Positions 13,759 to 44,488 of a stretch of 64,000 nucleotides of DNA are shown one piece after another. Each line of letters begins with the position of its first letter. The first letter of the stretch is position 1. Origin of the DNA: Trypanosoma brucei. Lineage: Eukaryota. A program made the translations under genes and the position numbers. The DNA lies in assembly GCA_000002445.1 (NCBI GenBank), contig CM000208.1, positions 2,048,001 to 2,112,000 of the forward strand. Reading direction: 5' to 3'. A model generated the notes under the pieces. The model was not told where the DNA came from and did not search any database. It was given only the letters and a program-made list of their open reading frames with translations.

Positions 13759-14871
13759 CAAGGGATGGCATAACTTGTGTTTACCTGTTAACGAATCTTA
13801 GTTCAATCACAGGACGAAATGTATTTACGTCTCCACCCCCCTTTTTTAACTTCTGATAACTCACCTTCTGTTGGTCCACTATGTAGCGTTGATGTTTATT
13901 GGAGGTGTATTATGGCGGCTGATTGTACCGGCTAAGACAGCGGGAAGAATGGTGGAACACATGCACTGGTGCACACGTGCATACCAAATTTACACAACAT
14001 AGGGAGGGGATGATGGGGTTAACTTCATCAAATTGTTCTTACCATGACAGAAGATTTCGTAGATCTTAACGGGCGAGGGAGGGGAAATCAACGTTTAAAT
14101 CACAAAGGGAGGGAGAATGTATACGCAAAGGTGTTTAGTTGTATCGGGCACTGACAACGCAACGCCTTCGTGTAGTCTTCTTCGGTAATATTTCCAGGCA
14201 CTACGGGGGTTCCTGCAATGGTGGCGCTCCCTTTTGCATTGAGAGAGGATGGCACTCTTTGGGGTTACACCGTGCTCGGCACGCTACCACTATTGTCGTT
14301 TGCAGCTGGGTTGTGCTCAGAAGAAATTGGTTGCATGTCCGTGGATTAGTGCGTTCATGCGGCCGATCTCTTTTTTTTCTTTTGTGCCCGACGTTGTCAT
14401 GGGCCCCTGGTAAGGGGGAACGCTTTTCTGACCTCGGTGCGCAATACACCTCCTGAGTTTTCTGGGATGTGATGTGCTCTAGGGACTCGGGGATGAGCGA
14501 AGGAGTGACTGTGCTGGCCTTGGGGAGGGTGTAGGTAGAGGAGGAGGGTGCGGTAGGGCTTTGTGAGTCTACCCATGTTCCTGTTTGTGGCGATGGGATT
14601 CGGCCGCTCACCTGAGATCTCTGTATCTCTTTTTCTTTACTCACCTCCCGTCGCGTGTGATCGTTAGTTTAGCGGAGATTTTGTTTGTTTTACATATTTA
14701 CACCGTACCCCTTTTGGCACTGCTCTCGCTAACTTGTTGTTTTTTCCTTGCTGCTGCTTCCGACACCGTTGTGTATGATTTCGGCTTTTTGATCCCTTAC
14801 ATTTTGAATTTAGATACGGGTCTGTGTTTCGTGTTGGGGGTGGCTTTTCAGAAGATCGGGGGGCCAGTGAC

Positions 14872-17800
14872 ATGGAGGGCTGCGCCCATCCGTTAACAAG
14901 CCAGCTACAGCCCATTTTCAGCGAATTACATTCTGGGAAGTTGGCGACGCTGTCATCTACTATTTCGAAGCTGGAAAACGTTCTTAAGGACCAAGGTGAC
15001 GGCTTCTTCCAAAGTAACTCCGAATGTCAGTCCAGGGAGGCCAACTTGAGACTTTCGGTTTGGATTAGCTCCCAAATAGGACAGCTTTTTAGGAGACCAG
15101 AGACTCAACGTGCCGCGATATTGTGTGTCAAAACGCTCCTAGATGTGGAGTATGAGGCCATCAACAACTTGGACCAGACGTTTCTTAGGCTTCTGGAAGA
15201 CTCTGTGAAGTGTGCTGACATGAGCGTCTCGAGGATGGCTGCAGAGGTGTGGGGACTCTGGCTGAACAATAGTGGCACTTCTACCGAAGGAATTGCACAG
15301 TCCAGACTGAAAATTTGTTTTGCCGATCTTCGGGAATCGGACAAAGTAATGGATAAGGTTGCTGCGTGCCTGTTTCTTGAGGAGCTCCTTAAGCGCACCC
15401 CGTCGACTGTTGCACCGTTGCTCGACGTCGTTGCCGAATGTCTTCATCCGGCAGTTCTTAGTTCCTCGGATCTCGTTCAGGCAAGCGCGGCAACAGCTCT
15501 GCGGTACGTTCTGTTGCTTATGTATACATCGATGAATCCGAGTGGAATCAAAAAGTGGTATGAAACATTTTTAAGTGCTTCGCTTGATGCTCTGAGATCA
15601 GGTGCCCCTGAGCGCCGCACTGGTGCCATTCGTTGCTTCAACGCTGTTATGTCATCCGTCACGAGCAATGTCTCTGCGTGCGACACGGCTGTGACTTTTT
15701 CAGAAACATCGGTTGCTCACGTTCATGAGATATGGGAATATGTCAGTGAGCAAGTGACGCTCACCAGCACGCTGGAGCTGAGGCGGGAGCTTCTACAGTC
15801 GTTAACTATACTTGCACTGTATGACACTGAGGCGTTTAAGAGGATGTCTATTGCAAAAGTTGTGGAAGCGGCTTCTGGTGTCTTCCAGACGCCGACAGAA
15901 AAAGATTTGGAGCCGTTAGTGTTCCAAACCCTGGGAAAGCTCGCAGGAGTTATGCCAGATCAAATAGTCACATTTCTTGGTTGTTCAATGCGTCATATTG
16001 AAGAGGTACTGAAACAAGGGAGGCATGATGCGTGCGGTTTGGGGGCCATTGCGTGTGTTGCTGCGTTCGCAGAAGTGAATCCCAGGGCGGTGCGACCGTA
16101 CCTGCGGCAGATTCTTGCACCCATTCTTTCCGGGTCGCTTACTGTTGACTTTGCGAAGGGCGTTGCCCGCATTTGTGCGGCGTTTCCCGAACTGCGGTCC
16201 ACATGCCTGTCGAAGATATTGGAGGTAGCAAAGAAACAACTGCGAGACGACCGGTGTAACGCAGGCGGCGCGGGTGCTTTGTGCGATGGAGGAGTCAGTC
16301 CCGCAGCACAGATTCTCAGCGCTCTAAGTAATCTCGAGTTTGCTGGGTATCCTACTTTGCCCTTTCTGTGTGACACGGCCGTTGCTTACGTTTCGGTCCC
16401 TAACGGAGAGGTTCGACGTGCCGCAATAAAGCTTTGCTTTAAGCTTGTGTTATCTGGTTGTCTAGGCCCGCAGTCGCCTTGTAGGCAAACTTCTGATGGT
16501 GTTGTCATACATAGCGGCTGTGAGCATACTCAACTTTTCAACAAAGTAATCAAAAAACTGGTGAACGCTGCGGTAGCAGACCCGGAGAGTGACATCAGAC
16601 TTGACACTTTGAGAAACTTTACGGAGGAATTTGACCATACGCTTGCTCTCCGTGATGTTGTGAGGTCTCTGTTTCCTGCCTTGCATGACAAACACCAGAA
16701 CAGATTGGCGGTTGTCCGTCTTCTTGGTCGGGTGTCGCGTAGGAACCCAGCACATGTTTATCCTATGCTAAGGAGAATTATGGTGCAGTGTGTGACCGAA
16801 ATGCAATACTTCGAGCATGCGAAGAAGCAAGAGCAGGCCTTTTCCGTGCTGGGTGCCATAATTGAATCTGCGCCTGGCTTGGGTAAGCCTTATATATCGT
16901 CCTTGCTCAACATGTGTGCAGCAAGACTGAGCGATGGGACGCGGGAAGCGGACGTCTGCGCAGCTTTGCTGTCATGTGTGGGGAAACTCGTCCGTTATGC
17001 TGAAGGTGACGACATTCGCGTTTGTGCTCGAATACGACCCATCGTTGTTCAACACATCTTAGATTCGTCACATTTACCGAAGAAAAGGGAGGCGCTACGT
17101 GCTCTCGGTGATATCGTTCGTACGACAAAGGACGTTAACGTTTACGAGGACCACGCAGAACTCCTTCCTGTGCTCCTTCAAGCATTGCACGGTGGATTTA
17201 AAGAACTGTGGCCTGTCAGGAAAGATGTGCTTCAGTTAATGGGGATAATTGGTGCTGTTGACCCTGTTCGGGTAAAGGAAATCCTCCGGGGGTCTCGTGT
17301 TAACAATAATACGAAATTGGTACCTTTCCTTCCGTTTGAGGGTGAAGATACCATTGCCCAGACGGTTGTGCGGAGCGTCTTGCATATTCTTTCTCTTCCG
17401 TCACTAACAGAGGATCAAAGTGTGGCTGCTGTGCAGGTTATCGTTGGCATTTTTTCACTGGAGGTGCTTTCCCCCGGCTGTCTTGTTTCGTTCTACGGTG
17501 AGGTGATTTCTTCCATCCAAAAGCAAGCTCGAGTACAAGTGCGCAAACGGGAGGAAATTTTGGTGCACCTCATCTCACTTGTTCGCATTCTGAAGGGACA
17601 TCTTCGCCCTCATCTTAAGGAAATCACATCTACTGTTGATTCCTTCATTTCTGCCACCGACCTGTCCGTTCTGAGGCAGGTTTTAGCGTTGCTAAAGGAG
17701 CTGTGCTGCTCTCTTCGTGAGGAGTTTCGACCGTATATGTCGTCTCTCCTCGGTCCAATAATAGTCCTTGTGGAAGAAAATGTGGAGGAAACCAGTGAAA

Positions 17801-20800
17801 TTGTGCTTGACTTCTTCTCGGCTATGGGTTCCCTATTGGAGGACCACCTCCATACCGTCTTGCCGGTCGTGTGCAACATCATTGTAGATACTTCTGTGCC
17901 ATCTAGGTGTCGGATTGTTGCGGTGAAAACACTCATTTGCTTTACGAAGAGGCTACCTGATCTCTGTTTCCACGCCTCCCGCTGCGTGCACTGTCTGTGC
18001 CGTGTGCTAAGGGAATCCGACGGCGGAGATGGGGTGGGCGATGAGGGGAGACTGGGGTTTTCCGCGATGGAGGCCTTGTGCACACTCGCGGGAAGTTTGG
18101 GGAAGAACTTCGAAAACTTTGTCCTGGTCGTTTTACCGGCGGTAGCAGACCGCTACGGGGAGACAAGCGGGGAGTACTGTCGCTTTTGCCATGATATTTA
18201 TGAGGCCATCGATGGAAAGAGGGCCCCTGAAGTTTCATCGAACGGCGTGGGCAAAGCTGGTGGCGGTGGTGCACCTTCGCTTCCTTTCACCGCAGGGACG
18301 AGCGCATCACCGTTAAAGGATCGTGCCGACGCATACGCTTCTCTCCGGTTTCACCTCCGGAAGCGGGACCAGGCTAGTGACGAAGATTGGAACCATTGGC
18401 TACCGCAGCTTGCAGTGAACTTGCTGCGATCAAGCTCGTCTCCTTCACATGGCCGTGCTCTGACTCTTGCCGAACTGCATGAGCCCTTTGCACGACAGAT
18501 GCTGCACTCCGCTTTTGCCGCTTGCTATGCCGACATGGATGAACATACACAACGTGAGGTGGTTGGGTTACTCACTGAGGTTTTGCGCGGGCTGCGGGTA
18601 CCCAGTGAGGTTATGCAAGAGCTACTCAACCTGTCGGAGCATATGGAGCGTCAGGGGATTCGTCTAAGCGCCGGCGGGAAGGCAAGCATAAAGCATTCCT
18701 CTAACTTTTGCCCTTTCGACCGCCAAGTTCTTATGGAGAGTAGTGCAAATTGCAATTTGTACTCCAAGGCACTACATTACGCTGAGATCGAATTTTTTGA
18801 GACGGTTCGCGAGTACGAGCGGAGTATTCTTCGAGGTTGCCCAAAGCCTCTTCCTGTTAAGGATTGGCAGAATCTTATAAAACTCTGTGAGAAAAGTATC
18901 TACTTCTGTAACCTTCTTGGACAGCGAGAGAGCGCAAATGGCATACTTAAATTCATTCGGCAGAATCTACCGTTATTAACAGGGAAAAAAGTGACAGAGC
19001 TGTCCCAAATGATGGATGCGCACCTCTTTGACAAGCTGCGGTGGTGGTCGCAAAGCCTGCAGGCATACGAGCGGCGCTTACAGCAGGAACCAAACAAGGT
19101 TTCCAACATGGTTGGTTTACTAAGGGCACTCGATGCCTTAGGTGAGTACCCGCGCGTGTTGGAAATGTGGAGGCAGTTCTCTAAGCGAGTCAGCAAAAGA
19201 GAAGTCTCCAAATTGGCGTCGATGGGCGCCCACGCGGCTTGGCTCCTGAGACGTTGGGACGATATGGAACACATCACGAGTTTTATGTCTGACGAAGACT
19301 ACACAGGGACAACCGCTCTTTTCTATAAGGCTACGCTAGCAGCGCGTAAAAAAAGGTTCCGTGAGGCGGAGAAGTTGATCGACATGTGCCGCAAGCGCGT
19401 CGACTCCAAGCTGTCCGCTCTTGTTGCGGAGAGCTACGATCGTGCATATGACCTTTTCGTCGGCATTCAACAGTTGAGTGAGCTGGAAGAGCTTGCGATG
19501 GCCACTAGTGATCCACAGAGCGCCATGCATTGGAGGCAACTGTGGGAGCGCCGACTGTCCGTAATGGCTTACGAGGGGTGGCCCGGCACGCTAGCGAATC
19601 ATACCCTTTTGGTGCCTCCATCAAGTGAGATCGATATGTGGTTGCGTTTTGTTAGTTTGAGCCGTGCACATGGTCAAGGGAGTGTCTCCACTGAAGTTTT
19701 ACGCGAGTTACTTGGCAACCAATCTATAGAGTCTGCTATAGAAAACGGAATACCGACTCCCGCTGTTGCAATGGGATCATTTCAACACCTCTATGAAACG
19801 AACCAGAGGGACTCAGCGATTGCAAGACTGCAGCTGTACGTGAGCAAGGTGGAGGGCTCTGGAGCACAGCACGTCAGTAGGGAACGAGAGGATATGGCCG
19901 TTTGTCACGCCAAATTGGCGGAGTGGTTGGTTCATCAAAAGAAGGCACATCGTACGGAGGACGAATTGCAAAAAATTTTTCATCACCTCCGTCGCGCCAC
20001 TGAGTTGGACAAAAGCAACGGCTCGATTTGGCGCACGTTAGCGCGTGTACACCGTGAGGCGGCTACCAAACCCGCTGACGGATCCGACTCCTCGGGTGCA
20101 AGTGGCCACATCATGGAGGCCCTCAGTGCCTATTTGCGGAGTGTGTCCCTCTCCGAGGAACTAGAAGATGCCCTTGGGTTTCTTTCCCTTTGGTTCATGT
20201 ATGGACCTCTTCTGGCTGTGCAGGTGGGCTCGACCCTCAAGGAGGAAATTGAGGAGGTTAACCCGACTGTGTGGCTCAAAGTGATTCCGCAGATCATAGC
20301 GCGTATATCTTCACCCAACGGTACCGTAGCGGATTCTGTTTATAATCTTCTCGTGTTGGTCGCAAGAAGGCATCCGCAAGCCATTCTCTACAGCCTGAAC
20401 GTCGCCCACTCAAGTTATCAGGGGAAGGGTACGGCAGACGGTGTGGAGCCCTTGAAGGGTTCTCATCGAGTACTTGCTCGAATTGCGGAGATTCACCAGA
20501 ACGGTAAGGCGATGGTCGAAGACTCCGCACTTGTTTGCCGTGAGTTGGTTCGCTGCGCTGTGCTCTGGCCCGAGCTGTGGATCAACGAACTAGGGAGAGC
20601 TTTATACCAGTGGGAAAGACAAAGAAGCGCAGAGAATCTCTTGTTGGCGATGGGACCGTTACTGGAACAGCTCAAGAGACCTGAGACAATGGCGGAGGCG
20701 CAGTTTGCTGCGGAGCTCAGGCAACCACTCGAGAATGCATGCTGCCATGTTGAGAGGGCTGTTTCTTCTCGCCATGAACAATTTATGGAGGAGGCACGAC

Positions 20801-22170
20801 GTATTTTTGTTTCTATAGAGAGAAGAATACGTGAACAGATTAGTGGAATGTCATCGTTGGCATTGCAGTTGGTAAGCCCTAAACTGCACCAAAACGGGAG
20901 AAACTTGTCATTGGTTGTGCCAGGTCAGTACAGGGAGGACGGAAACTATCCCCTGATTGCTTCCTTTCAGAATGTTCTGAAGGTGCTTAACTCAAAACAG
21001 CGGCCTCGGCGTATTTACATCAACGGGTCGAATGGCGAGATCTACAAGTTCTTGCTGAAGGGTCATGAGGATCTACGTTTGGATGAAAGGGTTATGCAGT
21101 TACTTGGGTTTGTCAACACTATTCTTGAGAAGCATTCGGTTGCAAAGCGCCATGACTGCCTTATCCAGACGTACTCAGTCACCCCTCTTAGCGATAATGC
21201 TGGACTGGTAGGTTGGGTGGACCACTGCGACACACTGAACAAAATCATTGAGGATTATAGAGTGAATCCCAGGTGTATTAGGATGGAGCTTGACCTTATG
21301 AGAAGTATGTGTGACAATCTGTACTATCTTACCGCCATTCAACGTGTGGAGCCGTTTGAGTTTGCGTTGGAGCGAACTGAGGGAGTGGATCTCGTTCGCT
21401 CCTTCTGGGTGAAAGCTCCCAGCGCGGAGACGTGGCTTGAGAGGAGGACGACATACGTTTGCTCACTCGCCACCATGTCTATGGTGGGGCATATATTAGG
21501 ACTGGGTGACCGTCACCCTTCAAACCTTATGATACACGCATTTAGCGGGAGAGTGGTGCACATTGACTTCGGCGACTGCTTTGAAGTGGCGCAGCAGCGA
21601 AGCATTCACCCTGAAAAGGTACCGTTTCGACTTACTCGTATGTTGGTTAAGGCAATGGAAATGGGGGGAATAGAAGGTCTCTTTCGGCATGGGTGTCACA
21701 CAGTGATGAATGTTTTGCGTGAAGAGGGTGGTAGTCTCTTAGCATTACTTGAGGCATTTGTTCACGACCCCTTGGTGTCTTGGTGGCGTGATGAGGCTGA
21801 GGGTTTTAGTGGGAACGGCCAAGCCGCTTCATCGGTACAAACAATCTCGGTTATAGGCTCCATGACGAACGTTGCTGAGGAGGACAGCGTGGGGAGTCTG
21901 CAGTTGTCACAGTTGTCGGTGCAACGGCGAGCAACCACTCAGCAGCGCGTGAATGCCAACATCGAAAAGGACACTAGTCAGACTCGCAAACCTAAAAGTG
22001 TCGTCAAACGTATTAAAAGGAAGTTAAGGGGTCTGGAGTTTCCTCAATCACAGGAGGGTAAGGGCAGCGATGGTTTTACAGTGGAGGAACAAGTGTCGAG
22101 GTTGATTGAAGAAGCAACTTCTAACGAAAACCTTTGCGTTCACTTCCTCGGGTGGTGCCCTTTCTGGTAG
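14872..22170 (+). CDS. TOR1: TOR (target of rapamycin) PIKK-family serine/threonine kinase; probably TOR1
   Basis: 2432-aa protein from the Met at 14872 (MEGCAHP…) within ORF 14824..22170. The PI3K/PI4K catalytic motif GLGDRHPSNLMIHAFSGRVVHIDFGDCFEVAQQRSIHPEKVPFRLTRMLVKAMEMGGIEGLFRH is nearly identical to the mTOR catalytic loop and DFG region. HEAT/FAT-like helical repeats lie upstream. A FATC tail ends …LCVHFLGWCPFW. Position immediately upstream of RPS12 and the THT array matches my memory of the T. brucei chr10 TOR1 locus. Confidence 0.85.
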   Translation: MEGCAHPLTSQLQPIFSELHSGKLATLSSTISKLENVLKDQGDGFFQSNSECQSREANLRLSVWISSQIGQLFRRPETQRAAILCVKTLLDVEYEAINNLDQTFLRLLEDSVKCADMSVSRMAAEVWGLWLNNSGTSTEGIAQSRLKICFADLRESDKVMDKVAACLFLEELLKRTPSTVAPLLDVVAECLHPAVLSSSDLVQASAATALRYVLLLMYTSMNPSGIKKWYETFLSASLDALRSGAPERRTGAIRCFNAVMSSVTSNVSACDTAVTFSETSVAHVHEIWEYVSEQVTLTSTLELRRELLQSLTILALYDTEAFKRMSIAKVVEAASGVFQTPTEKDLEPLVFQTLGKLAGVMPDQIVTFLGCSMRHIEEVLKQGRHDACGLGAIACVAAFAEVNPRAVRPYLRQILAPILSGSLTVDFAKGVARICAAFPELRSTCLSKILEVAKKQLRDDRCNAGGAGALCDGGVSPAAQILSALSNLEFAGYPTLPFLCDTAVAYVSVPNGEVRRAAIKLCFKLVLSGCLGPQSPCRQTSDGVVIHSGCEHTQLFNKVIKKLVNAAVADPESDIRLDTLRNFTEEFDHTLALRDVVRSLFPALHDKHQNRLAVVRLLGRVSRRNPAHVYPMLRRIMVQCVTEMQYFEHAKKQEQAFSVLGAIIESAPGLGKPYISSLLNMCAARLSDGTREADVCAALLSCVGKLVRYAEGDDIRVCARIRPIVVQHILDSSHLPKKREALRALGDIVRTTKDVNVYEDHAELLPVLLQALHGGFKELWPVRKDVLQLMGIIGAVDPVRVKEILRGSRVNNNTKLVPFLPFEGEDTIAQTVVRSVLHILSLPSLTEDQSVAAVQVIVGIFSLEVLSPGCLVSFYGEVISSIQKQARVQVRKREEILVHLISLVRILKGHLRPHLKEITSTVDSFISATDLSVLRQVLALLKELCCSLREEFRPYMSSLLGPIIVLVEENVEETSEIVLDFFSAMGSLLEDHLHTVLPVVCNIIVDTSVPSRCRIVAVKTLICFTKRLPDLCFHASRCVHCLCRVLRESDGGDGVGDEGRLGFSAMEALCTLAGSLGKNFENFVLVVLPAVADRYGETSGEYCRFCHDIYEAIDGKRAPEVSSNGVGKAGGGGAPSLPFTAGTSASPLKDRADAYASLRFHLRKRDQASDEDWNHWLPQLAVNLLRSSSSPSHGRALTLAELHEPFARQMLHSAFAACYADMDEHTQREVVGLLTEVLRGLRVPSEVMQELLNLSEHMERQGIRLSAGGKASIKHSSNFCPFDRQVLMESSANCNLYSKALHYAEIEFFETVREYERSILRGCPKPLPVKDWQNLIKLCEKSIYFCNLLGQRESANGILKFIRQNLPLLTGKKVTELSQMMDAHLFDKLRWWSQSLQAYERRLQQEPNKVSNMVGLLRALDALGEYPRVLEMWRQFSKRVSKREVSKLASMGAHAAWLLRRWDDMEHITSFMSDEDYTGTTALFYKATLAARKKRFREAEKLIDMCRKRVDSKLSALVAESYDRAYDLFVGIQQLSELEELAMATSDPQSAMHWRQLWERRLSVMAYEGWPGTLANHTLLVPPSSEIDMWLRFVSLSRAHGQGSVSTEVLRELLGNQSIESAIENGIPTPAVAMGSFQHLYETNQRDSAIARLQLYVSKVEGSGAQHVSREREDMAVCHAKLAEWLVHQKKAHRTEDELQKIFHHLRRATELDKSNGSIWRTLARVHREAATKPADGSDSSGASGHIMEALSAYLRSVSLSEELEDALGFLSLWFMYGPLLAVQVGSTLKEEIEEVNPTVWLKVIPQIIARISSPNGTVADSVYNLLVLVARRHPQAILYSLNVAHSSYQGKGTADGVEPLKGSHRVLARIAEIHQNGKAMVEDSALVCRELVRCAVLWPELWINELGRALYQWERQRSAENLLLAMGPLLEQLKRPETMAEAQFAAELRQPLENACCHVERAVSSRHEQFMEEARRIFVSIERRIREQISGMSSLALQLVSPKLHQNGRNLSLVVPGQYREDGNYPLIASFQNVLKVLNSKQRPRRIYINGSNGEIYKFLLKGHEDLRLDERVMQLLGFVNTILEKHSVAKRHDCLIQTYSVTPLSDNAGLVGWVDHCDTLNKIIEDYRVNPRCIRMELDLMRSMCDNLYYLTAIQRVEPFEFALERTEGVDLVRSFWVKAPSAETWLERRTTYVCSLATMSMVGHILGLGDRHPSNLMIHAFSGRVVHIDFGDCFEVAQQRSIHPEKVPFRLTRMLVKAMEMGGIEGLFRHGCHTVMNVLREEGGSLLALLEAFVHDPLVSWWRDEAEGFSGNGQAASSVQTISVIGSMTNVAEEDSVGSLQLSQLSVQRRATTQQRVNANIEKDTSQTRKPKSVVKRIKRKLRGLEFPQSQEGKGSDGFTVEEQVSRLIEEATSNENLCVHFLGWCPFW

Positions 22171-24418: not shown

Positions 24419-26002
24419 ATGACTGAGCGTCGTGATAACGTTTCCCACGCACCTGATGCCATCGAGGGCCCAAACGATGGTGCTCACGCCGAGGACACAT
24501 CGCCGGGTTTCTTCTCATTCGAAAATCTTGGTGTGGCGCAGGTACAAGTCGTCGGAGGAACTCTGAACGGATATGTTATTGGGTATGTTGCTGTGTATTT
24601 GCTGCTGTACCTGACGGCAACTGAGTGCAAATTTACTACGGAGGGTGCATGTGGCGGAGCTAAGATATATGGGTGCAAATGGAGCGGCACGACATGCAAA
24701 TTCGAGAATCCCAAATGTAGTGAAGGCTCCGATCCTTCCGATTCTTGCAAAAACGAGGTGGCCTACACGTCTGTTTACAGCGGTATCTTTGCCTGCGCCA
24801 TGATCGTTGGTTCAATGGTTGGGTCGATTATAGCCGGGAAGTGCATCACTACGTTTGGACTGAAGAAATCATTCATCATTGTCTCAGTCACCTGTACTAT
24901 AGCTTGTGTTGTGGTGCAGGTAGCGATTGAGTACAATAATTACTACGCACTGTGCACTGGACGAGTGCTCATAGGTCTCGGCGTTGGTATTTTATGCTCT
25001 GTTTGCCCCATGTATGTGAATGAGAACGCACATCCCAAACTCTGCAAGATGGACGGTGTGTTGTTTCAGGTGTTCACAACACTTGGCATTATGCTTGCCG
25101 CGATGCTGGGTCTGATTTTGGACAAAACAGGAGCTAGTAAAGAAGAGGCAAACATGGCTGGGCGGTTACACGTTTTTTCAGCGGTACCGCTTGGATTGTC
25201 CGTCGCCATGTTCCTAGTGGGCATGTTCCTCCGCGAAAGCACTGCAACATTTTCCCAAGACGATGATGGTAAGGCTGATGGCGGAATGGACCCCAACGAG
25301 TATGGCTGGGGGCAGATGTTGTGGCCACTGTTCATGGGCGCTGTAACCGCTGGTACGCTGCAACTGACTGGGATCAACGCGGTAATGAACTATGCGCCGA
25401 AGATTACAGAGAACCTCGGAATGGATCCATCACTTGGCAACTTTCTGGTTATGGCATGGAATTTTGTGACATCCCTTGCGGCTATTCCACTTGCGTCACG
25501 CTTTACGATGCGTCAAATGTTTATCACCTGTTCCTTTGTTGCGTCATGTATGTGCTTGTTCCTATGTGGAATCCCAGTGTTCCCCGGTGTTGCTGAAGAA
25601 AAGGTGAAGAATGGTGTGGCAACTACTGGTATCGCCCTGTTCATAGCTGCATTTGAGTTTGGTGTTGGGTCGTGCTTCTTCGTGCTTGCACAGGACCTTT
25701 TCCCACCATCATTCCGACCTAAGGGCGGTTCGTTTGTTGTCATGATGCAGTTTATCTTTAACATCCTTATTAACCTATTGTATCCCATTACAACCGAAGC
25801 TATATCTGGTGGGCCAACTGCCAACCAGGACAAGGGACAGGCCGTTGCATTCATACTGTTTGGTTTAATTGGCTTGATTTGTTCGGTTCTGCAGTTCTTT
25901 TACTTGTATCCATATGATGCCAATCAGGACCATGAGAATGACCATGGTGGTGAGCCTGTGGAACAGAAGACATATCCCGTTGAAGCATCTCCGCGGAACT
26001 AA
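24419..26002 (+). CDS. THT1: Hexose (glucose) transporter THT1-type, MFS sugar porter, array copy 1
   Basis: 527 aa. The N-terminus MTERRDNVSHAPDAIEGPNDGAHAEDTSPGFFSFENLGVAQVQVVGGTLNGYVIGYVAVYLLLY and the Cys-rich first exofacial loop match the T. brucei THT1 isoform as I recall it. Twelve hydrophobic TM segments are evident. C-terminus …HGGEPVEQKTYPVEASPRN. Confidence 0.85.
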   Translation: MTERRDNVSHAPDAIEGPNDGAHAEDTSPGFFSFENLGVAQVQVVGGTLNGYVIGYVAVYLLLYLTATECKFTTEGACGGAKIYGCKWSGTTCKFENPKCSEGSDPSDSCKNEVAYTSVYSGIFACAMIVGSMVGSIIAGKCITTFGLKKSFIIVSVTCTIACVVVQVAIEYNNYYALCTGRVLIGLGVGILCSVCPMYVNENAHPKLCKMDGVLFQVFTTLGIMLAAMLGLILDKTGASKEEANMAGRLHVFSAVPLGLSVAMFLVGMFLRESTATFSQDDDGKADGGMDPNEYGWGQMLWPLFMGAVTAGTLQLTGINAVMNYAPKITENLGMDPSLGNFLVMAWNFVTSLAAIPLASRFTMRQMFITCSFVASCMCLFLCGIPVFPGVAEEKVKNGVATTGIALFIAAFEFGVGSCFFVLAQDLFPPSFRPKGGSFVVMMQFIFNILINLLYPITTEAISGGPTANQDKGQAVAFILFGLIGLICSVLQFFYLYPYDANQDHENDHGGEPVEQKTYPVEASPRN

Positions 26003-26464
26003 AGCACTGAAGCTTAATTCATCTGGTGAGGTATTGTTTGTCTCGCCCGCATGACTCATGTGCTGGGGAAGTGTAAAAGGGGGGATGGCGACGAAGTTGT
26101 TTCTTGCATATTTCTCGCGCATCTGATGAATTAAAAAAAAAACGATTATTGCATAACATGATTATCTGACCACAAAACGTTTTGTAGTTTGAAGGAGGTA
26201 ATTGGGTAATGTTTTAGAGGTCGTCAATATTAGTGGCGTTAATGAAAACGGATTTTAAAATTTACTTCTTTTTGCTGTTTTATGTTGTCTATATATACTT
26301 TTGTTTTTCCATCAAGTCGACTGTGCCTATTATTATCTGCTCCGTTTTGTAGCAGCGGATGGACAGATGGATGAAGTGATATATGAGGGCAGTATGCTGT
26401 TAGTGTGTATGTGCACTCTAAAGCTGCTGCTGTGTCGGGATAGTGATTTACGTAGGGCAGTTGA

Positions 26465-26487
26465 TTTTTCTTTTTTCTTTTTTTTTG
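26465..26487 (+). promoter_or_regulatory. Polypyrimidine tract in the inter-THT spacer (candidate trans-splicing/polyadenylation-coupling signal)
   Basis: tttttcttttttctttttttttg about 320 nt upstream of the copy-2 ATG. The same tract recurs at 29025..29048 upstream of copy 3. The functional assignment comes from general kinetoplastid mRNA-processing knowledge. Confidence 0.5.
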
Positions 26488-26807
26488 TAATATTATACAA
26501 TTGAAGACGTTTCTTAATATTTTTTTGAAAAAAAAACATTGTGTTGTTTTTTATTGGTGTACAGGGGACAACTCGTTTTATTAAAACCCTTTGTCGTTGG
26601 GCTGTGCCCCAATTCTGGCGTCACGCGATGTTCTTCTATAATGATCTCTTACTTTACCCGTAACACCACATTAATGGTTTATTTCACTTTTTTGGTTGAT
26701 TTTGTTTGGATTGCTGCCGCCACATTACGTCTCCCTTCCATATTGTTTTATTATTGTCAGTTACGCAATCAGGCAAACTCATATAAATTGTCCAGTGACC
26801 CAAAACA

Positions 26808-28394
26808 ATGACTGAGCGTCGTGATAACGTTTCCCACGCACCTGATGCCATCGAGGGCCCAAACGATGGTGCTCACGCCGAGGACACATCACCGGGTTTC
26901 TTCTCATTCGAGAATCTTGGTGTGGCGCAAGTACAAGTCGTCGGAGGAACTCTGAACGGATATGTTATTGGGTATGTTGCTGTGTATTTGCTGCTGTACC
27001 TGACGGCAACTGAGTGCAAATTTACTACGGAGGTTGCATGTGGCGGAGCTAAGATATATGGGTGCAAATGGAGCGGCACGACATGCAAATTCGAGAATCC
27101 CAAATGTAGTGAAGGCTCCGATCCTTCCGATTCTTGCAAAAACGAGGTGGCCTACACGTCTGTTTACAGCGGTATCTTTGCCTGCGCCATGATCGTTGGT
27201 TCAATGGTTGGGTCGATTATAGCCGGGAAGTGCATCACTACGTTTGGACTGAAGAAATCATTTATCATTGTCTCAATCACTTGTACTATAGCTTGTGTTG
27301 TGGTGCAGGTAGCGATTGAGTACAATAATTACTACGCACTGTGCACTGGACGAGTGCTCATAGGTCTCGGCGTTGGTATTTTATGCTCTGTTTGCCCCAT
27401 GTATGTGAATGAGAACGCACATCCCAAACTCTGCAAGATGGACGGTGTGTTGTTTCAGGTGTTCACAACACTTGGCATTATGCTTGCCGCGATGCTGGGT
27501 CTGATTTTGGACAAAACAGGAGCTAGTAAAGAAGAGGCAAACATGGCTGGGCGGTTACACGTTTTTTCAGCGGTACCGCTTGGATTGTCCGTCGCCATGT
27601 TCCTAGTGGGCATGTTCCTCCGCGAAAGCACTGCAACATTTTCCCAAGACGATGATGGTAAGGCTGATGGCGGAATGGACCCCAACGAGTATGGCTGGGG
27701 GCAGATGTTGTGGCCACTGTTCATGGGCGCTGTAACCGCTGGTACGCTGCAGCTGACTGGGATCAACGCGGTAATGAACTATGCGCCGAAGATTACAGAG
27801 AACCTCGGAATGGATCCATCACTTGGCAACTTTCTGGTTATGGCATGGAATTTTGTGACATCCCTTGTGGCTATTCCACTTGCGTCACGCTTTACGATGC
27901 GTCAAATGTTTATCACCTGTTCCTTTGTTGCGTCATGTATGTGCTTGTTCCTATGTGGAATCCCAGTGTTCCCCGGTGTTGCTGAAGAAAAGGTGAAGAA
28001 TGGTGTGGCAACTACTGGTATCGCCCTGTTCATAGCTGCATTTGAGTTTGGTGTTGGGTCGTGCTTCTTCGTGCTTGCACAGGACCTTTTCCCACCATCA
28101 TTCCGACCTAAGGGCTCTTCGTTTGTTGTCATGATGCAGTTTATCTTTAACATCCTTATTAACCTATTGTATCCCATTACAACCGAAGCTATATCTGGTG
28201 GGCCAACCGGCGACCAGGATAAGGGACAGGCCGTTGTATTCATACTGTTTGGTTTAATTGGCTTGATTTGTTTCGTTCTGCAGTTCTTTTACTTGTATCC
28301 ATATGATGCCAATCAGGACCATGAGAATGACCATGGCACTGAGCCCGTGGAACGTATTGCTTCTCCCGTTGATGTCCCCACGCCGCGGAACTAA
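26808..28394 (+). CDS. THT1: Hexose transporter, chimeric: THT1-type N-terminal and first-loop region, THT2-type C-terminal ~70 aa and THT2-type 3' flank
   Basis: 528 aa. Identical to copy 1 through the THT1-type loop (…LTATECKFTTEVACGGAKIYGCKWSGTTCKFENPKCSEG…) apart from a few substitutions (G→V, V→I, A→V). From …KGSSFVVMMQ… to …HGTEPVERIASPVDVPTPRN it is identical to copy 3 (THT2). The downstream flank follows the copy-3 sequence, not the copy-1 sequence, from 'ggcgacgtaaccg' onward. Confidence 0.8.
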   Translation: MTERRDNVSHAPDAIEGPNDGAHAEDTSPGFFSFENLGVAQVQVVGGTLNGYVIGYVAVYLLLYLTATECKFTTEVACGGAKIYGCKWSGTTCKFENPKCSEGSDPSDSCKNEVAYTSVYSGIFACAMIVGSMVGSIIAGKCITTFGLKKSFIIVSITCTIACVVVQVAIEYNNYYALCTGRVLIGLGVGILCSVCPMYVNENAHPKLCKMDGVLFQVFTTLGIMLAAMLGLILDKTGASKEEANMAGRLHVFSAVPLGLSVAMFLVGMFLRESTATFSQDDDGKADGGMDPNEYGWGQMLWPLFMGAVTAGTLQLTGINAVMNYAPKITENLGMDPSLGNFLVMAWNFVTSLVAIPLASRFTMRQMFITCSFVASCMCLFLCGIPVFPGVAEEKVKNGVATTGIALFIAAFEFGVGSCFFVLAQDLFPPSFRPKGSSFVVMMQFIFNILINLLYPITTEAISGGPTGDQDKGQAVVFILFGLIGLICFVLQFFYLYPYDANQDHENDHGTEPVERIASPVDVPTPRN

Positions 28395-29369
28395 AGCACT
28401 GAAGCTTAATTCATCTGGTGAGGTATTGTTTGTCTCGCCCGCATGACTCATGTGCTGGGGAAGTGTAAAAGGGGGGATGGCGACGTAACCGATATTGTTA
28501 GAGGGCGGGAATTCCCCTCGATGTTTACGTTGTGAGGTAAATAAAACAGGATTTCTGTTGGGCCTTTGGATTTGACATTTTAAGGTTATCTCCCATGTCC
28601 CTATTTTAACGAGGCAGCAATCGCTATAGTGTATCTGATGTACCAATTGATGAGGCTGACCGTTTGTTTTTCCAGACTGTGGTTAGAATTGTAACTTGAT
28701 TCCATATTGTTTTAATGAGCGTACGGATTATGCCTTAGCGGATATTACTGTTATTTTTCTTTTAACTGAGCGAGTTAATTTACTGATTCTATTTCTTTGT
28801 AATTTAAAAGTTCGTTAATACCACGCTCTTTTCGATTATATTATCGATCACTTTGTTCTCTTTCATTTTGTCGACCTATGAATATTCTTGGTTTTCTGTC
28901 TTGTTGCACGGCAATAGATGGACAGATGGATGAAGTGATATATGAGGGCAGTATGCTGTTAGTGTGTATGTGCACTCTAAAGCTGCTGCTGTGTCGGGAT
29001 AGTGATTTACGTAGGGCAGTTGATTTTTCTTTTTTCTTTTTTTTTTTTGTAATATTATACAATTGAAGACGTTTCTTAATAGTTTTTTGAAAAAAAAACA
29101 TTGTGTTGTTTTTTATTGGTGTACAGGGGACAACTTGTTTTATTAAAACCCTTTGTCGTTGGGCTGTGCCCCAATTCTGGCGTCACGCGATGTTCTTCTA
29201 TAATGATCTCTTACTTTACCCGTAACACCACATTAATGGTTTATTTCACTTTTTTGGTTGATTTTGTTTGGATTGCTGCTGCCACATTACGTCTCCCTTC
29301 CATATTGTTTTATTATTGTCAGTTACGCAATCAGGCAAACTCATATAAATTGTCCAGTGACCCAAAACA

Positions 29370-30959
29370 ATGACTGAGCGTCGTGATAACGTTTCCCACG
29401 CACCTGATGCCATCGAGGGCCCAAACGATGGTGCTCACGCCGAGGACACATCACCGGGTTTTTTCTCACTCGAGAATCTTGGTGTGGCGCAGGTACAAGT
29501 CGTCGGAGGAACTCTGAACGGATTTTCCATCGGCTTTGTTGCTGTGTACATCCTTCTCTATGAAGTGGCGACGAATTGTTCATTATTCAAGACTACGGAA
29601 GCGTGCAAGGCCGTGGGTTCTTATGGATGTGAGTGGAAGGATACGGAAGTGTGCTCATGGAAGAAGGAATGTGACTCCGATTCCGATGGTGTCAATCCAT
29701 GCGAAAGCCTTATTGGGTACAGCTCGCTTTACAGCGGTATCTTTGCTTCTGCCATGATCGTTGGTTCAATGGTTGGGTCGATTATAGCCGGGAAGTGCAT
29801 CACTATGTTTGGACTGAAGAAATCATTCATCATTGTTGGCGTCATGAGTGTTGTGGCGTCTGCACTGAACCACATATCCGTGGCAACGAATGAGTTTTGG
29901 GTTCTATGCGCTGGACGAGTGCTCATGGGTATCGGTCTCGGCGTTGTTTGCGTTATTTGCCCCATGTATGTGAATGAGAACGCACATCCCAAACTCTCTA
30001 AGGTGGACGGTGTGTTGTTTCAGGTGTTCATCACGTTTGGGATTATGCTTGCCGCGATGCTGGGTCTGATTTTGGACAAAACGGTTAACTATGATAATGA
30101 CCCCGACATGGCTGGGCGTTTTCACGGTTTTTGTGCAGTGTCATCCGTACTCTCCGTCGCCATGTTCCTAGTGGGCATGTTCCTCCGCGAAAGCACTGCA
30201 ACATTTTCCCAAGACGATGATGGTAAGGCTGATGGCGGAATGGACCCCAACGAGTATGGCTGGGGGCAGATGTTGTGGCCACTGTTCATGGGCGCTGTAA
30301 CCGCTGGTACGCTGCAGCTGACTGGGATCAACGCGGTAATGAACTATGCGCCGAAGATTACAGAGAACCTCGGAATGGACCCATCACTTGGCAACTTTCT
30401 GGTTATGGCATGGAATTTTGTGACATCCCTTGCGGCTATTCCACTTGCGTCACGCTTTACGATGCGTCAAATGTTTATCACCTGTTCCTTTGTTGCGTCA
30501 TGTATGTGCTTGTTCCTATGTGGAATCCCAGTGTTCCCCGGTGTTGCTGAAGAAAAGGTGAAGAATGGTGTGGCAACTACTGGTATCGCCCTGTTCATAG
30601 CTGCATTTGAGTTTGGTGTTGGGTCGTGCTTCTTCGTGCTTGCACAGGACCTTTTCCCACCATCATTCCGACCTAAGGGCTCTTCGTTTGTTGTCATGAT
30701 GCAGTTTATCTTTAACATCCTTATTAACCTATTGTATCCCATTACAACCGAAGCTATATCTGGTGGGCCAACCGGCGACCAGGATAAGGGACAGGCCGTT
30801 GTATTCATACTGTTTGGTTTAATTGGCTTGATTTGTTTCGTTCTGCAGTTCTTTTACTTGTATCCATATGATGCCAATCAGGACCATGAGAATGACCATG
30901 GCACTGAGCCCGTGGAACGTATTGCTTCTCCCGTTGATGTCCCCACGCCGCGGAACTAA
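29370..30959 (+). CDS. THT2: Hexose transporter THT2-type, MFS sugar porter, array copy 3
   Basis: 529 aa. Same leader peptide, then a divergent loop (NGFSIGFVAVYILLYEVATNCSLFKTTEACKAVGSYGCEWKDTEVCSWKKECDSDSDGVNPCES) and a different central loop (NYDNDPD), as in the THT2 isoform. The C-terminal half is identical to copy 2. Confidence 0.85.
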   Translation: MTERRDNVSHAPDAIEGPNDGAHAEDTSPGFFSLENLGVAQVQVVGGTLNGFSIGFVAVYILLYEVATNCSLFKTTEACKAVGSYGCEWKDTEVCSWKKECDSDSDGVNPCESLIGYSSLYSGIFASAMIVGSMVGSIIAGKCITMFGLKKSFIIVGVMSVVASALNHISVATNEFWVLCAGRVLMGIGLGVVCVICPMYVNENAHPKLSKVDGVLFQVFITFGIMLAAMLGLILDKTVNYDNDPDMAGRFHGFCAVSSVLSVAMFLVGMFLRESTATFSQDDDGKADGGMDPNEYGWGQMLWPLFMGAVTAGTLQLTGINAVMNYAPKITENLGMDPSLGNFLVMAWNFVTSLAAIPLASRFTMRQMFITCSFVASCMCLFLCGIPVFPGVAEEKVKNGVATTGIALFIAAFEFGVGSCFFVLAQDLFPPSFRPKGSSFVVMMQFIFNILINLLYPITTEAISGGPTGDQDKGQAVVFILFGLIGLICFVLQFFYLYPYDANQDHENDHGTEPVERIASPVDVPTPRN

Positions 30960-31654
30960 AGCACTGAAGCTTAATTCATCTGGTGAGGTATTGTTTGTCT
31001 CGCCCGCATGACTCATGTGCTGGGGAAGTGTAAAAGGGGGGATGGCGACGTAACCGATATTGTTAGAGGGCGGGAATTCCCCTCGATGTTTACGTTGTGA
31101 GGTAAATAAAACAGGATTTCTGTTGGGCCTTTGGATTTGACATTTTAAGGTTATCTCCCATGTCCCTATTTTAACGAGGCAGCAATCGCTATAGTGTATC
31201 TGATGTACCAATTGATGAGGCTGACCGTTGCAGTAAAATATTCCTTTTTTATTATGTGTTGTGGTGGTCACCGTTTTTTTTAATTTATGACGTGTTATCG
31301 CTTTTTTTTGTTTTCGTTCAAGTGAGTGATGCGGGTTGTTAGTGTTACATATTGTCTTTTCTTGTTTTAATTTTGTAATTTCCTTAATTTTATTATTATT
31401 TTATTATTTTTTCGACCTATGAATATTCTTGGTTTTCTGTCTTGTTGCACGGCAATAGATGGACAGATGGATGAAGTGATATATGAGGGCAGTATGCTGT
31501 TAGTGTGTATGTGCACTCTAAAGCTGCTGCTGTGTCGGGATAGTGATTTACGTAGGGCAGTTGATTATCTCCTTATATATTTGTCTTTTTTTAAAGAAGG
31601 TTATGTAAATCATGAAGCGAAAACGGTTTTGTTTTTTGTTGGAGATGTTTATTT

Positions 31655-31775: not shown

Positions 31776-32795
31776 GTGGGATTGATGGGTATTGACTACT
31801 ACAAGGTGCTCGGTGTGTCGAGGGACGCCTCGCCAAGCGATATTAAGAAGGCGTATCATCAACTTGCGTTGAAGTACCATCCAGACAAAGCCAGTGGGAA
31901 TCGGGAGGAGGCGGAGCGGCTGTTCAAAGAAGTGGCTGAGGCGTATGATGTGTTGAGCGACGAAAAGAAGAAAAAAATTTATGACTCTTACGGTGAAGAG
32001 GGTCTTAAGGGCGGGGTGCCCGATGGCAGTAGTGGCGGCCCTGGAGGTGCTGGATTCCATGGCTTTTCCTCTGGTGGTGGGACGTATAACTTTTCGAATA
32101 GGGACGCATTTAAAGTGTTTGAGTCTTTTTTCGGGAGCAATGATCCATTTGCTGGAGGTGACATGTTTGGTGGAGGTCCCGGACTACATCGTGTGTTTCG
32201 CGGATTTGGCGGACCGCACGGCTTTATGTCGGGTTTTGGCTCTCCGGAGATGTCGCCCGCGCACGAGGTTCCGCCGCTTGAGTACACTTTTTCGTGCACG
32301 CTGGAGGAGATTTACTCGGGCTGCACGAAGAAGTTCAACGTTTTGCGACCGCTGCCCACAGGGGAGGAGAAGAAGTTGTTTGAGGTGGCTGTACTTCCAG
32401 GATATAAGAAGGGTACAAAGGTGCGTTTCGTTGGCGAGGGTGGCATTGTTCAGGGCTATCCGCCGAATGTCATGGCAGACTTGGTGTTTGTGCTCGATGA
32501 AAAGCCGCATCCGCGGTTCAAGCGGGATGGCGCGGACGTTCTCACAACTGTCCAGATTAACTTGAAGCAAGCTTTACTGGGAACGACAATCAGTGTGCTC
32601 TGCCTTGATGGGACTACTCAATCGCTTCCGTTGACTGGGGTGAGCAAAAACGGTCGAAAGCTCCGTGTAAGTGGGAAGGGACTCCCCAATCGCAAGACGA
32701 AGCAAAATGGTGACATGTATGTTACCATTGAGGTGGTCATGCCTACGTCACTGAATGAGGCTACGAAGCGATTGGTTGAAAAATGTGAATTTTAG
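31776..32795 (+). CDS. DnaJ/Hsp40 chaperone, type II (J-domain, G/F-rich linker, C-terminal substrate-binding domains, no zinc finger)
   Basis: N-terminal J-domain [33 protein letters not shown] with the HPD motif. A Gly/Phe-rich region follows ([16 protein letters not shown]…FGGGPG). The C-terminal domain is DnaJB/Sis1-like. The start may be the Met at 31776 or at 31785. Confidence 0.85.
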
Positions 32796-42968: not shown

Positions 42969-44488
42969 GAAGTACACCAGGTGACGATTTTGTTGTGTGT
43001 GTGTGTGGTTGCGTAGCGGTTGTGCATGGGCATTTCGCTATCGTTAAGGTTACTACGGCTTCTATTGAGTGAGTGCACACTTTTTTCATGCTTTTGGTAC
43101 GGCAAACATTTAGACTGTGAGGAAGGTTGCCATTAGTACTTGGTTCTTTGACGGTGCTGTGTTTCTACTCGTGGTGTATGGTGGAAGGTACCTGCTGCTT
43201 ACTTTTTCTTTGATGGGAAACAATCGCCACTGTAGGCGTCTTCCACTTTCAGTTTCCACATTGAATCGAACGGAATTAGTTTACTTCGCGATTCTTTTCG
43301 TTTGTAGAGTTATTTGTTTGACTTCTACTGTTATCCGTCCCCTGTGACTATCTCTAAATTTATGCACCTCCTTTTTGTCTTTTTTTTTTGCGGTCGCACA
43401 TGCGCTTTTCTTTGACACGTACGCGTATTGCCACCGCAGATGGGCACGTCAAGATGAGGTATGTGGTGTTCATATTCATAGAGTTCTTTGTGGTTGAGCG
43501 CCGCTATCGGTTGCAGTGTAAAGGATGCACAGTGGTGTCTGCTTTTATGCTTTGGATTTGTCCTGTCACTCGGCAATGAGTTTGTGCTTGTTTTTTTTCC
43601 TTCCGTCCATCTGGTACGTCGTTTATTTCTGCGCCATTCGTCATTATTATTCTTTAAAGTGCTGTGTGTGCACTTCGATATAATGGAGTACGGTATGCGA
43701 CGAAAGGGGGGGGTGGCGAGAGGAATCAATCCGGGGATACAGTTTTTAAAGTCATTTTTACCTATCGATTATTGATCATGTGTTACTCTGAAACACGTTG
43801 ACGCTCTGTTGCCTCATTTCCCGTTTGATTTTTTTCCCGCCATATTTATCGCAGCCGATAGTGGACACAATGTCGGCATGATTCACGTGTTTCTGCCGCA
43901 CTCTGATAAGCTAGTCGTGAACGTCGGTGTATGAGGCGTTTAAGTGTATGAGCAGGGGTCGGGAGGCGGTTCCGCTCCCGTTTTTCCAGTGTGTAGTTGC
44001 CTATATTGCTCTCCTCTACGGTATGGTGAAGCGCTTCCTTTGCTTGGAGGTCGGAGTGTGCGGTGTTTTGCCCCCCGTCTTGTTTGCGGTGCTGGCAGAG
44101 AAGCCGTTGATCTCCGCAAGGTGCCGTCGCACTCTGATGGTGGCAGTGGTGTAACCCAACCGAAGAAAAATTACCTGAAGTGCTGCATCTGCCGTTTTGA
44201 GCTGCAGCTTCGCCTTAGTTTACGGCATTCAGGAGTTACGGTGAGCTGATCGGGAAAGACAATGATGTGCTGGTACAGATTTTGCCACATTTGTGCATAC
44301 TTCCCCCTTGTGATGATATGCTTCTTGCTTGTACCCCTGCTTTTCCTTTTTTCATGTGGGACCACATCGCCTGGGAGATGATGCGTTAACCAACTTTCAC
44401 TTTCTTGTCTTAAAATTGAACCGCTACGTGACTTACTGTAAAGAGGATCAAGAGGTTGTGAAGGAGGATACAGTCACGAATAGCAGTT

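What the first reader, a model, noticed from the sequence alone, without database searches (positions are those of the whole stretch)
26808..28700. Chimeric hexose-transporter copy at the THT1/THT2 sub-array junction: THT1 body joined to a THT2 C-terminus and THT2-type 3' flank
Copy 2 (26808..28394) carries the THT1-type leader and Cys-rich first loop (…YVIGYVAVYLLLYLTATECKFTTE…). From …KGSSFVVMMQ… to the stop it is residue-for-residue identical to copy 3 (THT2: …GPTGDQDKGQAVVFILFGLIGLICFVLQ…HGTEPVERIASPVDVPTPRN). Copy 1 differs there (…GPTANQDKGQAVAFILFGLIGLICSVLQ…HGGEPVEQKTYPVEASPRN). The downstream flank also switches. After copy 1 the flank reads …ggatggcgacgaagttgtttcttgcatatttctcgcg… After copies 2 and 3 it reads …ggatggcgacgtaaccgatattgttagagggcgggaattcccctcg… In T. 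brucei the THT1 and THT2 3'UTRs are thought to drive opposite life-cycle stage expression (bloodstream vs procyclic). A THT1-type coding region under a THT2-type 3'UTR would therefore be a regulatory hybrid. This could be a genuine gene-conversion product marking the sub-array boundary, or an assembly join between collapsed repeats.
Basis: partly seen in the sequence, partly recalled or inferred. Interest (0 to 1): 0.65.

Follow-up and report, generated by a model that had tools for sequence, protein, structure and literature searches.

The report
Known recombinant glucose transporter gene THT1E
The middle of three tandem glucose-transporter genes really is a THT1 front half joined to a THT2 back half and THT2 downstream flank, but it is the already named and annotated gene THT1E of Trypanosoma brucei, so the finding is correct but not new.

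Summary
The window is T. brucei brucei TREU927 chromosome 10 in its GenBank form. Its three copies are EAN78250/51/52, old IDs Tb10.6k15.2040/2030/2020, named glucose transporter 1B, 1E and 2A. Copy 2 (26808-28394) is THT1-type up to 27587. It is THT2-type from 27983 at the latest, through the stop codon and the whole 975-bp downstream spacer. There is one switch, inside a conserved block (27588-27982). An assembly artefact is unlikely. UniProt Q09037, "Glucose transporter 1E", was cloned independently and has the same architecture built from its own strain's THT1 and THT2 alleles. Recombination in this array is already published: Jackson 2007 cites Bringaud & Baltz 1994 for possible conversion, and Jackson 2010 reports PHI p<0.001 with one T. 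b. brucei-specific isoform. The claim that the copy marks the sub-array boundary is not secure. The three-copy array probably under-represents the locus, since the current reference is described as 5+5 copies. A roughly 370-bp junction-spacer segment that gambiense and T. equiperdum carry between the last THT1 and first THT2 is absent from the window. The regulatory-hybrid idea is plausible but untested. Verdict: real, already known, low interest.

The parts
24419..26002 (+). Copy 1: THT1-type hexose transporter (527 aa; EAN78250/XP_823078; glucose transporter 1B, Tb10.6k15.2040). It carries a 4-site THT2-type patch (AEEK instead of AGKE) at about 25594-25601.
26003..26807 (+). THT1-to-THT1 type spacer (IG1, 805 bp). 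26003-26093 is common to all copies. About 26094-26371 is the THT1-specific 3' flank. 26372-26807 is the 5' block shared with the region upstream of copy 3.
   Evidence: 97-99% identical to the THT1-THT1 spacers of gambiense and T. equiperdum; block limits
26808..27587 (+). Copy 2 (THT1E), THT1-type segment: leader and Cys-rich first loop through the first half of the protein.
   Evidence: 194 of 194 informative sites that are fixed between THT1 and THT2 in the other genomes are THT1-type across 26962-27587. One further site, 27034, matches neither type. Seven differences from copy 1 in this segment show it is a separate THT1 unit.
27588..27982 (+). Crossover interval in copy 2. This is a conserved block where THT1 and THT2 are nearly identical. 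With the window's own copies alone, the interval is 27588-28115.
   Evidence: The EATRO THT1E protein places its switch between alignment columns 280 and 394, equivalent to about 27645-27987.
27983..28394 (+). Copy 2 (THT1E), THT2-type coding end: TM12 region and the C-terminal tail ...HGTEPVERIASPVDVPTPRN.
   Evidence: All 31 fixed sites from 27983 to 28490 are THT2-type. 100% identical to copy 3 from 27869 onward. Protein alignment.
28395..29369 (+). THT2-to-THT2 type spacer (IG2, 975 bp) downstream of copy 2. 28395-28485 is common to all copies. 28486 to about 28930 is the THT2-specific 3' flank (inferred 3'UTR). A polypyrimidine tract lies at about 29020-29050. 28931-29369 is the shared 5' block.
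   Evidence: 99-100% identical to the spacers after the THT2-body units Tequi_4, 6 and 7 of T. equiperdum, and only 74% to IG1. Sequence. UTR limits are inferred, not measured.
29370..30959 (+). Copy 3: THT2-type transporter (529 aa; EAN78252/XP_823080; glucose transporter 2A, Tb10.6k15.2020).
30960..31572 (+). Terminal flank of the array. 30960-31228 is the THT2-type 3' flank, identical to 28395-28663. A terminal-type segment follows. 31435-31572 is a remnant of the shared spacer block, and unique sequence then leads to the DnaJ gene at 31776.

Best explanation
Copy 2 is a real gene, the known THT1E (glucose transporter 1E). Homologous recombination between a THT1 unit and a THT2 unit produced it, with a single switch inside the roughly 400-bp block of the coding region where the two isoforms are nearly identical (27588-27982). 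The result is a THT1-type transporter body, including the extracellular Cys-rich loop and the first half of the protein. It carries the last ~135 residues of THT2 (about 14 amino-acid differences from THT1) and the complete THT2-type downstream spacer. Shown here: the architecture, the breakpoint interval, and the same architecture in an independently cloned gene. Inferred: the event type (unequal crossover or long conversion tract), and that the mRNA carries a THT2-type 3'UTR and is therefore regulated like THT2, meaning low in bloodstream forms and up in procyclic forms.
For: Single sharp switch in site patterns, 199/2 before versus 1/143 after, p = 8e-95. Against sites fixed between clean THT1 and THT2 units of gambiense and T. 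equiperdum, copy 2 is THT1-type at 194 sites and then THT2-type at 31 sites. Its downstream spacer is 99-100% identical to the spacers after THT2-body units of T. equiperdum. UniProt Q09037 / CAA48837, 'Glucose transporter 1E', 528 aa, is identical to that source's THT2A from alignment column 281 to the end. It differs from that source's THT1B only at 394-396 and 438-526, plus two N-terminal sites. It carries its own strain's alleles in both halves (R82, F197, A280; A467, L519), so it is not the same clone or assembly. The three genes were annotated 1B, 1E and 2A. Recombination is pervasive in this array. Copy 1 has a 4-site THT2 patch. T. equiperdum has THT2 bodies with THT1-type ends. Jackson 2010 reports PHI p<0.001 and one brucei-specific isoform. 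Jackson 2007 cites Bringaud & Baltz 1994 for possible gene conversion between the isoforms. 3'UTR-dependent stage regulation of THT1 and THT2 is reported in the literature.
Against: Physical linkage in TREU927 itself rests on the original assembly, which probably under-represents the array. The THT2-type part is 100% identical to copy 3 over about 795 bp, which a mis-join would also produce. No THT1E-type copy is present in the gambiense DAL972 or T. equiperdum assemblies. Microarray data list Tb10.6k15.2030 as bloodstream-up. Those probes were not checked here, and cross-hybridisation with other THT1 copies is assumed rather than shown. This does not support THT2-like regulation. The nucleotide sequence and 3' flank of the EATRO clone could not be read here.
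Confidence: 0.85

Rival explanations
1. Assembly chimera: reads from THT1 and THT2 units were joined across the identical mid-gene block when a longer array was collapsed to three copies, and no such molecule exists.
For: Arrays in this genome can be collapsed to pairs or triplets. The current reference is described as 5 THT1 + 5 THT2 against 3 copies here. The shared block of 395-528 bp is long enough to mislead short Sanger reads. The 3' part is identical to copy 3. The junction spacer found in two other genomes is missing.
Against: An independently cloned THT1E with the same architecture, carrying its own strain's alleles in both halves. Copy 2's THT1 part has seven differences from copy 1, so it is a distinct unit. 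The gene has been kept as glucose transporter 1E in later annotation.
Confidence: 0.08
2. Lepore-type fusion at the true boundary: one unequal crossover between the last THT1 and the first THT2 deleted the junction spacer, so the chimera really is the sub-array junction in TREU927. It is a sub-case of the best explanation, not exclusive of it.
For: The window shows what such an event predicts: a 5' THT1 / 3' THT2 fusion followed by an IG2 spacer and then THT2, with no junction spacer. The copy 2 to copy 3 spacing of 2562 bp equals the THT2 unit length of 2561 bp.
Against: The current reference is said to place THT1 genes at Tb927.10.8440-8480, which puts 8450 (1E) inside the THT1 group. In the original naming a THT1F also exists besides 1E, though whether the letters give gene order is my assumption. 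T. equiperdum shows patchy conversion rather than clean crossovers.
Confidence: 0.3
3. Functionally neutral by-product: the recombinant is real, but its 3'UTR swap has no biological role. It is one transient state of a constantly shuffling array. This is about function, not origin, so it is compatible with the best explanation.
For: The chimera is absent from the gambiense and T. equiperdum assemblies, and other strains carry different mosaics. Copy number is reported as variable between strains. Jackson 2010 finds recombinant mosaics in 31 of 35 arrays.
Against: The same architecture is found in two independent T. b. brucei sources.
Confidence: 0.55

Closest known systems
THT1E / glucose transporter 1E (UniProt Q09037, CAA48837; TREU927 gene Tb10.6k15.2030 = Tb927.10.8450)
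   Same: 528 aa. THT1-type body with a THT2-type end from residue 394 at the latest. Seven amino-acid differences from window copy 2. Window copy 2 is the protein deposited as EAN78251/XP_823079.
   Different: Nothing in kind. The two differ only by strain polymorphisms. The 3' flank of the original clone could not be compared here.
PGK-A/B/C array of T. brucei, where the middle gene is described as a chimaera of its neighbours made by gene conversion (Le Blancq et al. 1988, as cited in Jackson 2007)
   Same: A tandem array of stage-regulated glycolysis-related paralogues in which one copy is a recombinant of the other two types.
   Different: A different gene family. There the variation underlies glycosomal versus cytosolic isoforms. 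Here the swap moves a C-terminal tail and a 3'UTR.
Haemoglobin Lepore-type fusion genes (unequal crossover between adjacent paralogues; from my own knowledge)
   Same: The 5' part comes from the upstream paralogue and the 3' part plus flank from the downstream one. There is a single breakpoint in a conserved block, and the intervening spacer is missing in this assembly.
   Different: Whether the intervening DNA is really deleted in the organism is unknown, because the array is probably under-represented. Patchy conversion is equally possible.
Reciprocal mosaics in T. equiperdum IVM-t1 (L001 7442-9027 and 10001-11587; RHW68827)
   Same: Recombination between THT1 and THT2 units in the same 3' half of the gene.
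   Different: Opposite polarity, with a THT2 body and a THT1-type end. These copies sit inside the THT2 group. One of them has several switches.

Membership tests
Sugar_tr / MFS hexose transporters (Pfam PF00083, PF07690) | Full-length match to the Sugar_tr profile above the curated cut-off | tested here: met
   Copy 2: 363.8 bits against a cut-off of 22.3, profile positions 1-450 of 452. MFS_1: 85.8 bits.
THT1E (glucose transporter 1E) | THT1-type N-terminal body, including the Cys-rich first loop | tested here: met
   194 of 194 informative fixed nucleotide sites are THT1-type.
THT1E (glucose transporter 1E) | THT2-type C-terminal region (S438, D470, V478, F490, tail TEPVERI-SPVDVPTPRN; 528 aa) | tested here: met
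   Copy 2 and Q09037 share every one of these states. Only 7 differences exist overall.
THT1E (glucose transporter 1E) | Annotated under that name at this position in TREU927 | tested here: met
   Exact sequence equals EAN78251/XP_823079, lying between EAN78250 and EAN78252. Tb10.6k15.2040/2030/2020 are named 1B/1E/2A. Tb927.10.8450 is named glucose transporter 1E. The link from EAN78251 to Tb10.6k15.2030 is inferred from gene order and architecture.
THT1E (glucose transporter 1E) | THT2-type 3' flank in the original clone as well | not testable with these tools
   The nucleotide record and Bringaud & Baltz 1993 are not held.
Unequal-crossover (Lepore-type) fusion | Single breakpoint, with the upstream paralogue's 5' part joined to the downstream paralogue's 3' part and flank | tested here: met
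Unequal-crossover (Lepore-type) fusion | Loss of the DNA between the two parental genes in the real chromosome | tested here: inconclusive
   The junction-spacer segment is absent from the window, but the assembly probably under-represents the array.
Gene-conversion tract | Donor-type patch flanked on both sides by recipient-type sequence | tested here: inconclusive
   For copy 2 the THT2-type tract runs into the shared 5' block, so no return to THT1-type can be seen. For copy 1 the feature is met by the 4-site patch at c2-equivalent 27983-27990.
Assembly chimera | The architecture is not seen in any independent source | tested here: not met
   The independent THT1E record has the same architecture.

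The most novel reading that the evidence does not exclude
THT1E is a strain-variable third isoform, not just a recombination by-product. It would be a THT1-type transporter body placed under THT2-type 3'UTR control, so some T. b. brucei strains make a THT1-like carrier in procyclic or insect stages. This could also explain why Tb927.10.8450 shows procyclic-up protein but bloodstream-up mRNA in published tables.
Probability: 0.2. Interest if true: 0.35.

Novelty: already known. Interest (0 to 1): 0.12.

Why it matters
The main value is practical. Gene-ID-based analyses treat Tb927.10.8450 as THT1, yet in this sequence its 3' flank is THT2-type and its C-terminal peptides are shared with THT2. 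That can mislead 3'UTR motif searches. One study included the Tb927.10.8450 3'UTR among bloodstream-specific examples. It can also mislead proteomics. Urbaniak 2012 lists 8450 among genes with negative protein/mRNA correlation on the basis of one peptide. The locus is also a clean small example of mosaic evolution in trypanosome tandem arrays, but that principle is already published.

Tried and rejected
1. Bringaud & Baltz 1993 (PMC358999) is not held, so gene order A-F and the 3' flank of the original THT1E clone could not be checked.
2. I looked for more independent sightings of the chimera. The exact look-up and the homology search found only two T. brucei-group clusters (15 sequences), with no further THT1E-type protein and none from read-based assemblies. 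The single Logan contig (L003) is an ordinary THT2.
3. I searched the two 3' flanks for the U-rich motif UAUUUUUU, which I recall as a mark of procyclic-specific mRNAs. There are no full matches in the copy 1 or copy 2 flanks and one after copy 3, so this is not informative.
4. Painting the spacers against copy 3 as the THT2 reference was misleading, because copy 3 is the terminal unit. Pairwise spacer identities replaced it.
5. I rejected the idea that THT1 copies normally carry this end. Copy 1, two gambiense, three T. equiperdum and EATRO 1B/C/D/F all have the THT1-type end.

Full report
**Identity of the window.** The three 527-529-aa ORFs at 24419-26002, 26808-28394 and 29370-30959 are exact matches to EAN78250/XP_823078, EAN78251/XP_823079 and EAN78252/XP_823080. 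These are proteins of Trypanosoma brucei brucei TREU927, on a 4,054,025-bp record. All three are full-length Sugar_tr/MFS proteins. They lie between a TOR-like kinase gene (14824-22170) and a DnaJ gene (31776-32795), the same neighbours as in T. b. gambiense. Older literature names the three genes Tb10.6k15.2040, 2030 and 2020. Their products are glucose transporter 1B, 1E and 2A. Later papers call Tb927.10.8450 "glucose transporter 1E (THT1E)".

**The observation.** It is correct in every detail.
- Protein level: copy 2 follows copy 1 through the THT1-type body and is identical to copy 3 from ...KGSSFVV... to the stop codon.
- Nucleotide level: between the ATG and 28663 there are 199 sites grouping copies 1+2 against 3, and 2 sites grouping 2+3 against 1, all up to 27587. 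After 27587 the counts are 1 and 143 (Fisher p = 8e-95).
- Copy 2 differs from copy 3 at only two positions (27815, 27868) across 27588-28663.
- Flank: the quoted divergence after GGATGGCGACG is present at 26083, 28475 and 31040.

**Where the switch lies.** I brought in the whole array from two other genomes. T. b. gambiense DAL972 (L002) has four copies. T. equiperdum IVM-t1 (L001) has eight copies, and its first copy carries the unique upstream flank, so the array is complete there. There are 225 sites fixed between clean THT1 and clean THT2 units in those genomes. Copy 2 is THT1-type at 194 of them (26962-27587) and THT2-type at all 31 from 27983 to 28490. One site, 27034, matches neither type. 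The switch therefore lies in 27588-27982, a block where the isoforms are almost identical.

**The spacers.** Pairwise comparison sorts them into clear types.
- THT1-to-THT1 (about 800 bp): includes window 26003-26807.
- THT2-to-THT2 (about 972 bp): window 28395-29369 is 99-100% identical to three T. equiperdum spacers of this type.
- Junction type (about 975 bp): lies between the last THT1 and first THT2 in both gambiense and T. equiperdum.
- Terminal type: follows the last copy in each genome.

So copy 2 carries the complete THT2-type downstream region, not just a short patch. The copy 2 to copy 3 spacing (2562 bp) equals the THT2 unit length.

**Real gene or assembly join.** The protein collection holds UniProt Q09037 / CAA48837, "Glucose transporter 1E", 528 aa, deposited separately from the genome project. 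It is identical to the same source's THT2A (Q06222) from alignment column 281 to the end. It differs from the same source's THT1B (Q06221) only at 394-396 and 438-526, plus two N-terminal sites. That places its switch between columns 280 and 394, equivalent to about 27645-27987, which overlaps the interval found here. It carries that strain's own alleles in both halves, so it is an independent observation of the same architecture. Copy 2's THT1 part also differs from copy 1 at seven positions, so it is a distinct THT1 unit. I therefore rate the assembly-chimera reading at under 0.1.

**Is it the sub-array boundary?** This is not secure, for four reasons.
- Jackson 2007 warns that long arrays in this genome may be collapsed to pairs or triplets.
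- Kovarova et al. 2018 describe five THT1 (Tb927.10.8440-8480) and five THT2 (8490-8530) in the current reference. That would put 8450 inside the THT1 group.
- The junction spacer of gambiense and T. equiperdum contains a segment of about 370 bp with no counterpart anywhere in the window.
- The arrangement seen here is what a single unequal crossover would give, namely a fusion followed by a THT2 spacer with no junction spacer. An under-represented array in which only part of the locus was kept would look the same.

**Recombination is pervasive here.** Copy 1 itself has a four-site THT2-type patch (AEEK instead of AGKE). T. equiperdum has one THT2 body with a multiply switched 3' end and one THT2 body with a THT1-type end and a hybrid spacer, which is the reciprocal polarity. 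No THT1E-type copy is present in the gambiense or T. equiperdum assemblies.

**What is already published.**
- Jackson 2007 cites Bringaud & Baltz 1994 for possible gene conversion between the two hexose-transporter isoforms. It also gives the PGK array as a parallel case with a chimaeric middle gene.
- Jackson et al. 2010, Table 2, lists the hexose transporter array with 3 annotated copies in T. b. brucei and 4 in gambiense. It reports two shared isoforms, one unique isoform in each subspecies, and significant recombination (PHI p<0.001).

**Likely consequence (inferred).** The polypyrimidine tract at about 29020-29050 suggests that the copy 2 mRNA ends within the THT2-specific flank, so it would carry a THT2-type 3'UTR. 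3'UTRs are reported to contribute to the opposite stage regulation of THT1 and THT2. THT1E would then be a THT1-type body under THT2-like control. No data here test that.
- Microarrays list Tb10.6k15.2030 as bloodstream-up. I did not check the probes, so cross-hybridisation with other THT1 copies is an assumption.
- A SILAC study lists Tb927.10.8450 as procyclic-up on one peptide, among genes with negative protein/mRNA correlation.
- Either THT2-like regulation, or a shared THT2-type C-terminal peptide assigned to 8450, would explain the SILAC result.

**Verdict.** The assembly artefact is unlikely, the boundary claim is uncertain, and the regulatory idea is untested. The gene is already named, annotated and discussed as a recombinant, so novelty is "already known" and interest is low.

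Noticed in passing
window 25594-25601 (copy 1; equivalent to 27983-27990 in copy 2): Copy 1, otherwise THT1-type, carries a four-site THT2-type patch. It reads AEEK where THT1 copies of gambiense, T. equiperdum and EATRO read AGKE. It looks like a short gene-conversion tract.
   Followed up: partly
L002 11585-12561 and L001 6468-7441, compared with the window: The spacer between the last THT1 and first THT2 in gambiense and T. equiperdum is 100% identical between the two. It contains a segment of about 370 bp (positions 412-782) with no counterpart in the 64-kb window. This suggests the TREU927 three-copy array lacks part of the locus, or has truly lost it.
   Followed up: partly
L001 7442-9027 and 10001-11587 (T. 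equiperdum IVM-t1, CM010681.1): These are reciprocal-polarity mosaics. One is a THT2 body with a multiply switched 3' end. The other is a THT2 body with a THT1-type C-terminus and a hybrid 840-bp spacer (protein RHW68827).
   Followed up: partly
L001 2503-4136, 7442-9027, 12428-14016, 17550-19138: Every second copy in the T. equiperdum array is split into two ORFs at about residue 308, and only four of eight copies were called as genes. The strict alternation looks like an assembly or polishing artefact rather than real pseudogenes.
   Followed up: no
window 41295-42958 (+), inside ORF 39045-42968: A 102-bp unit repeated 16.3 times at 98% identity, which is in frame (34 aa per unit). The 677-aa antisense ORF at 41072-43105 is probably a by-product of this repeat.
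   Followed up: no
window 31435-31572: A 138-bp remnant of the shared inter-copy spacer block lies after the last copy and marks the right end of the array. On the left, the shared sequence upstream of copy 1 starts only at about 24341.
   Followed up: partly
literature on Tb927.10.8450 (window copy 2, 26808-28930): One study included the Tb927.10.8450 3'UTR among bloodstream-specific THT1 examples. A SILAC study lists 8450 as having opposite protein and mRNA regulation on one peptide. Both may be side effects of the chimeric structure.
   Followed up: partly
UniProt Q06221 (protein P0007): The entry name 'Glucose transporter 1B/1C/1D/1F/2B' places a gene called THT2B with the THT1-type sequence. 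That could mean a THT2-position gene with THT1-type sequence in the original strain, or it could be a curation merge. This remains unexplained.
   Followed up: no
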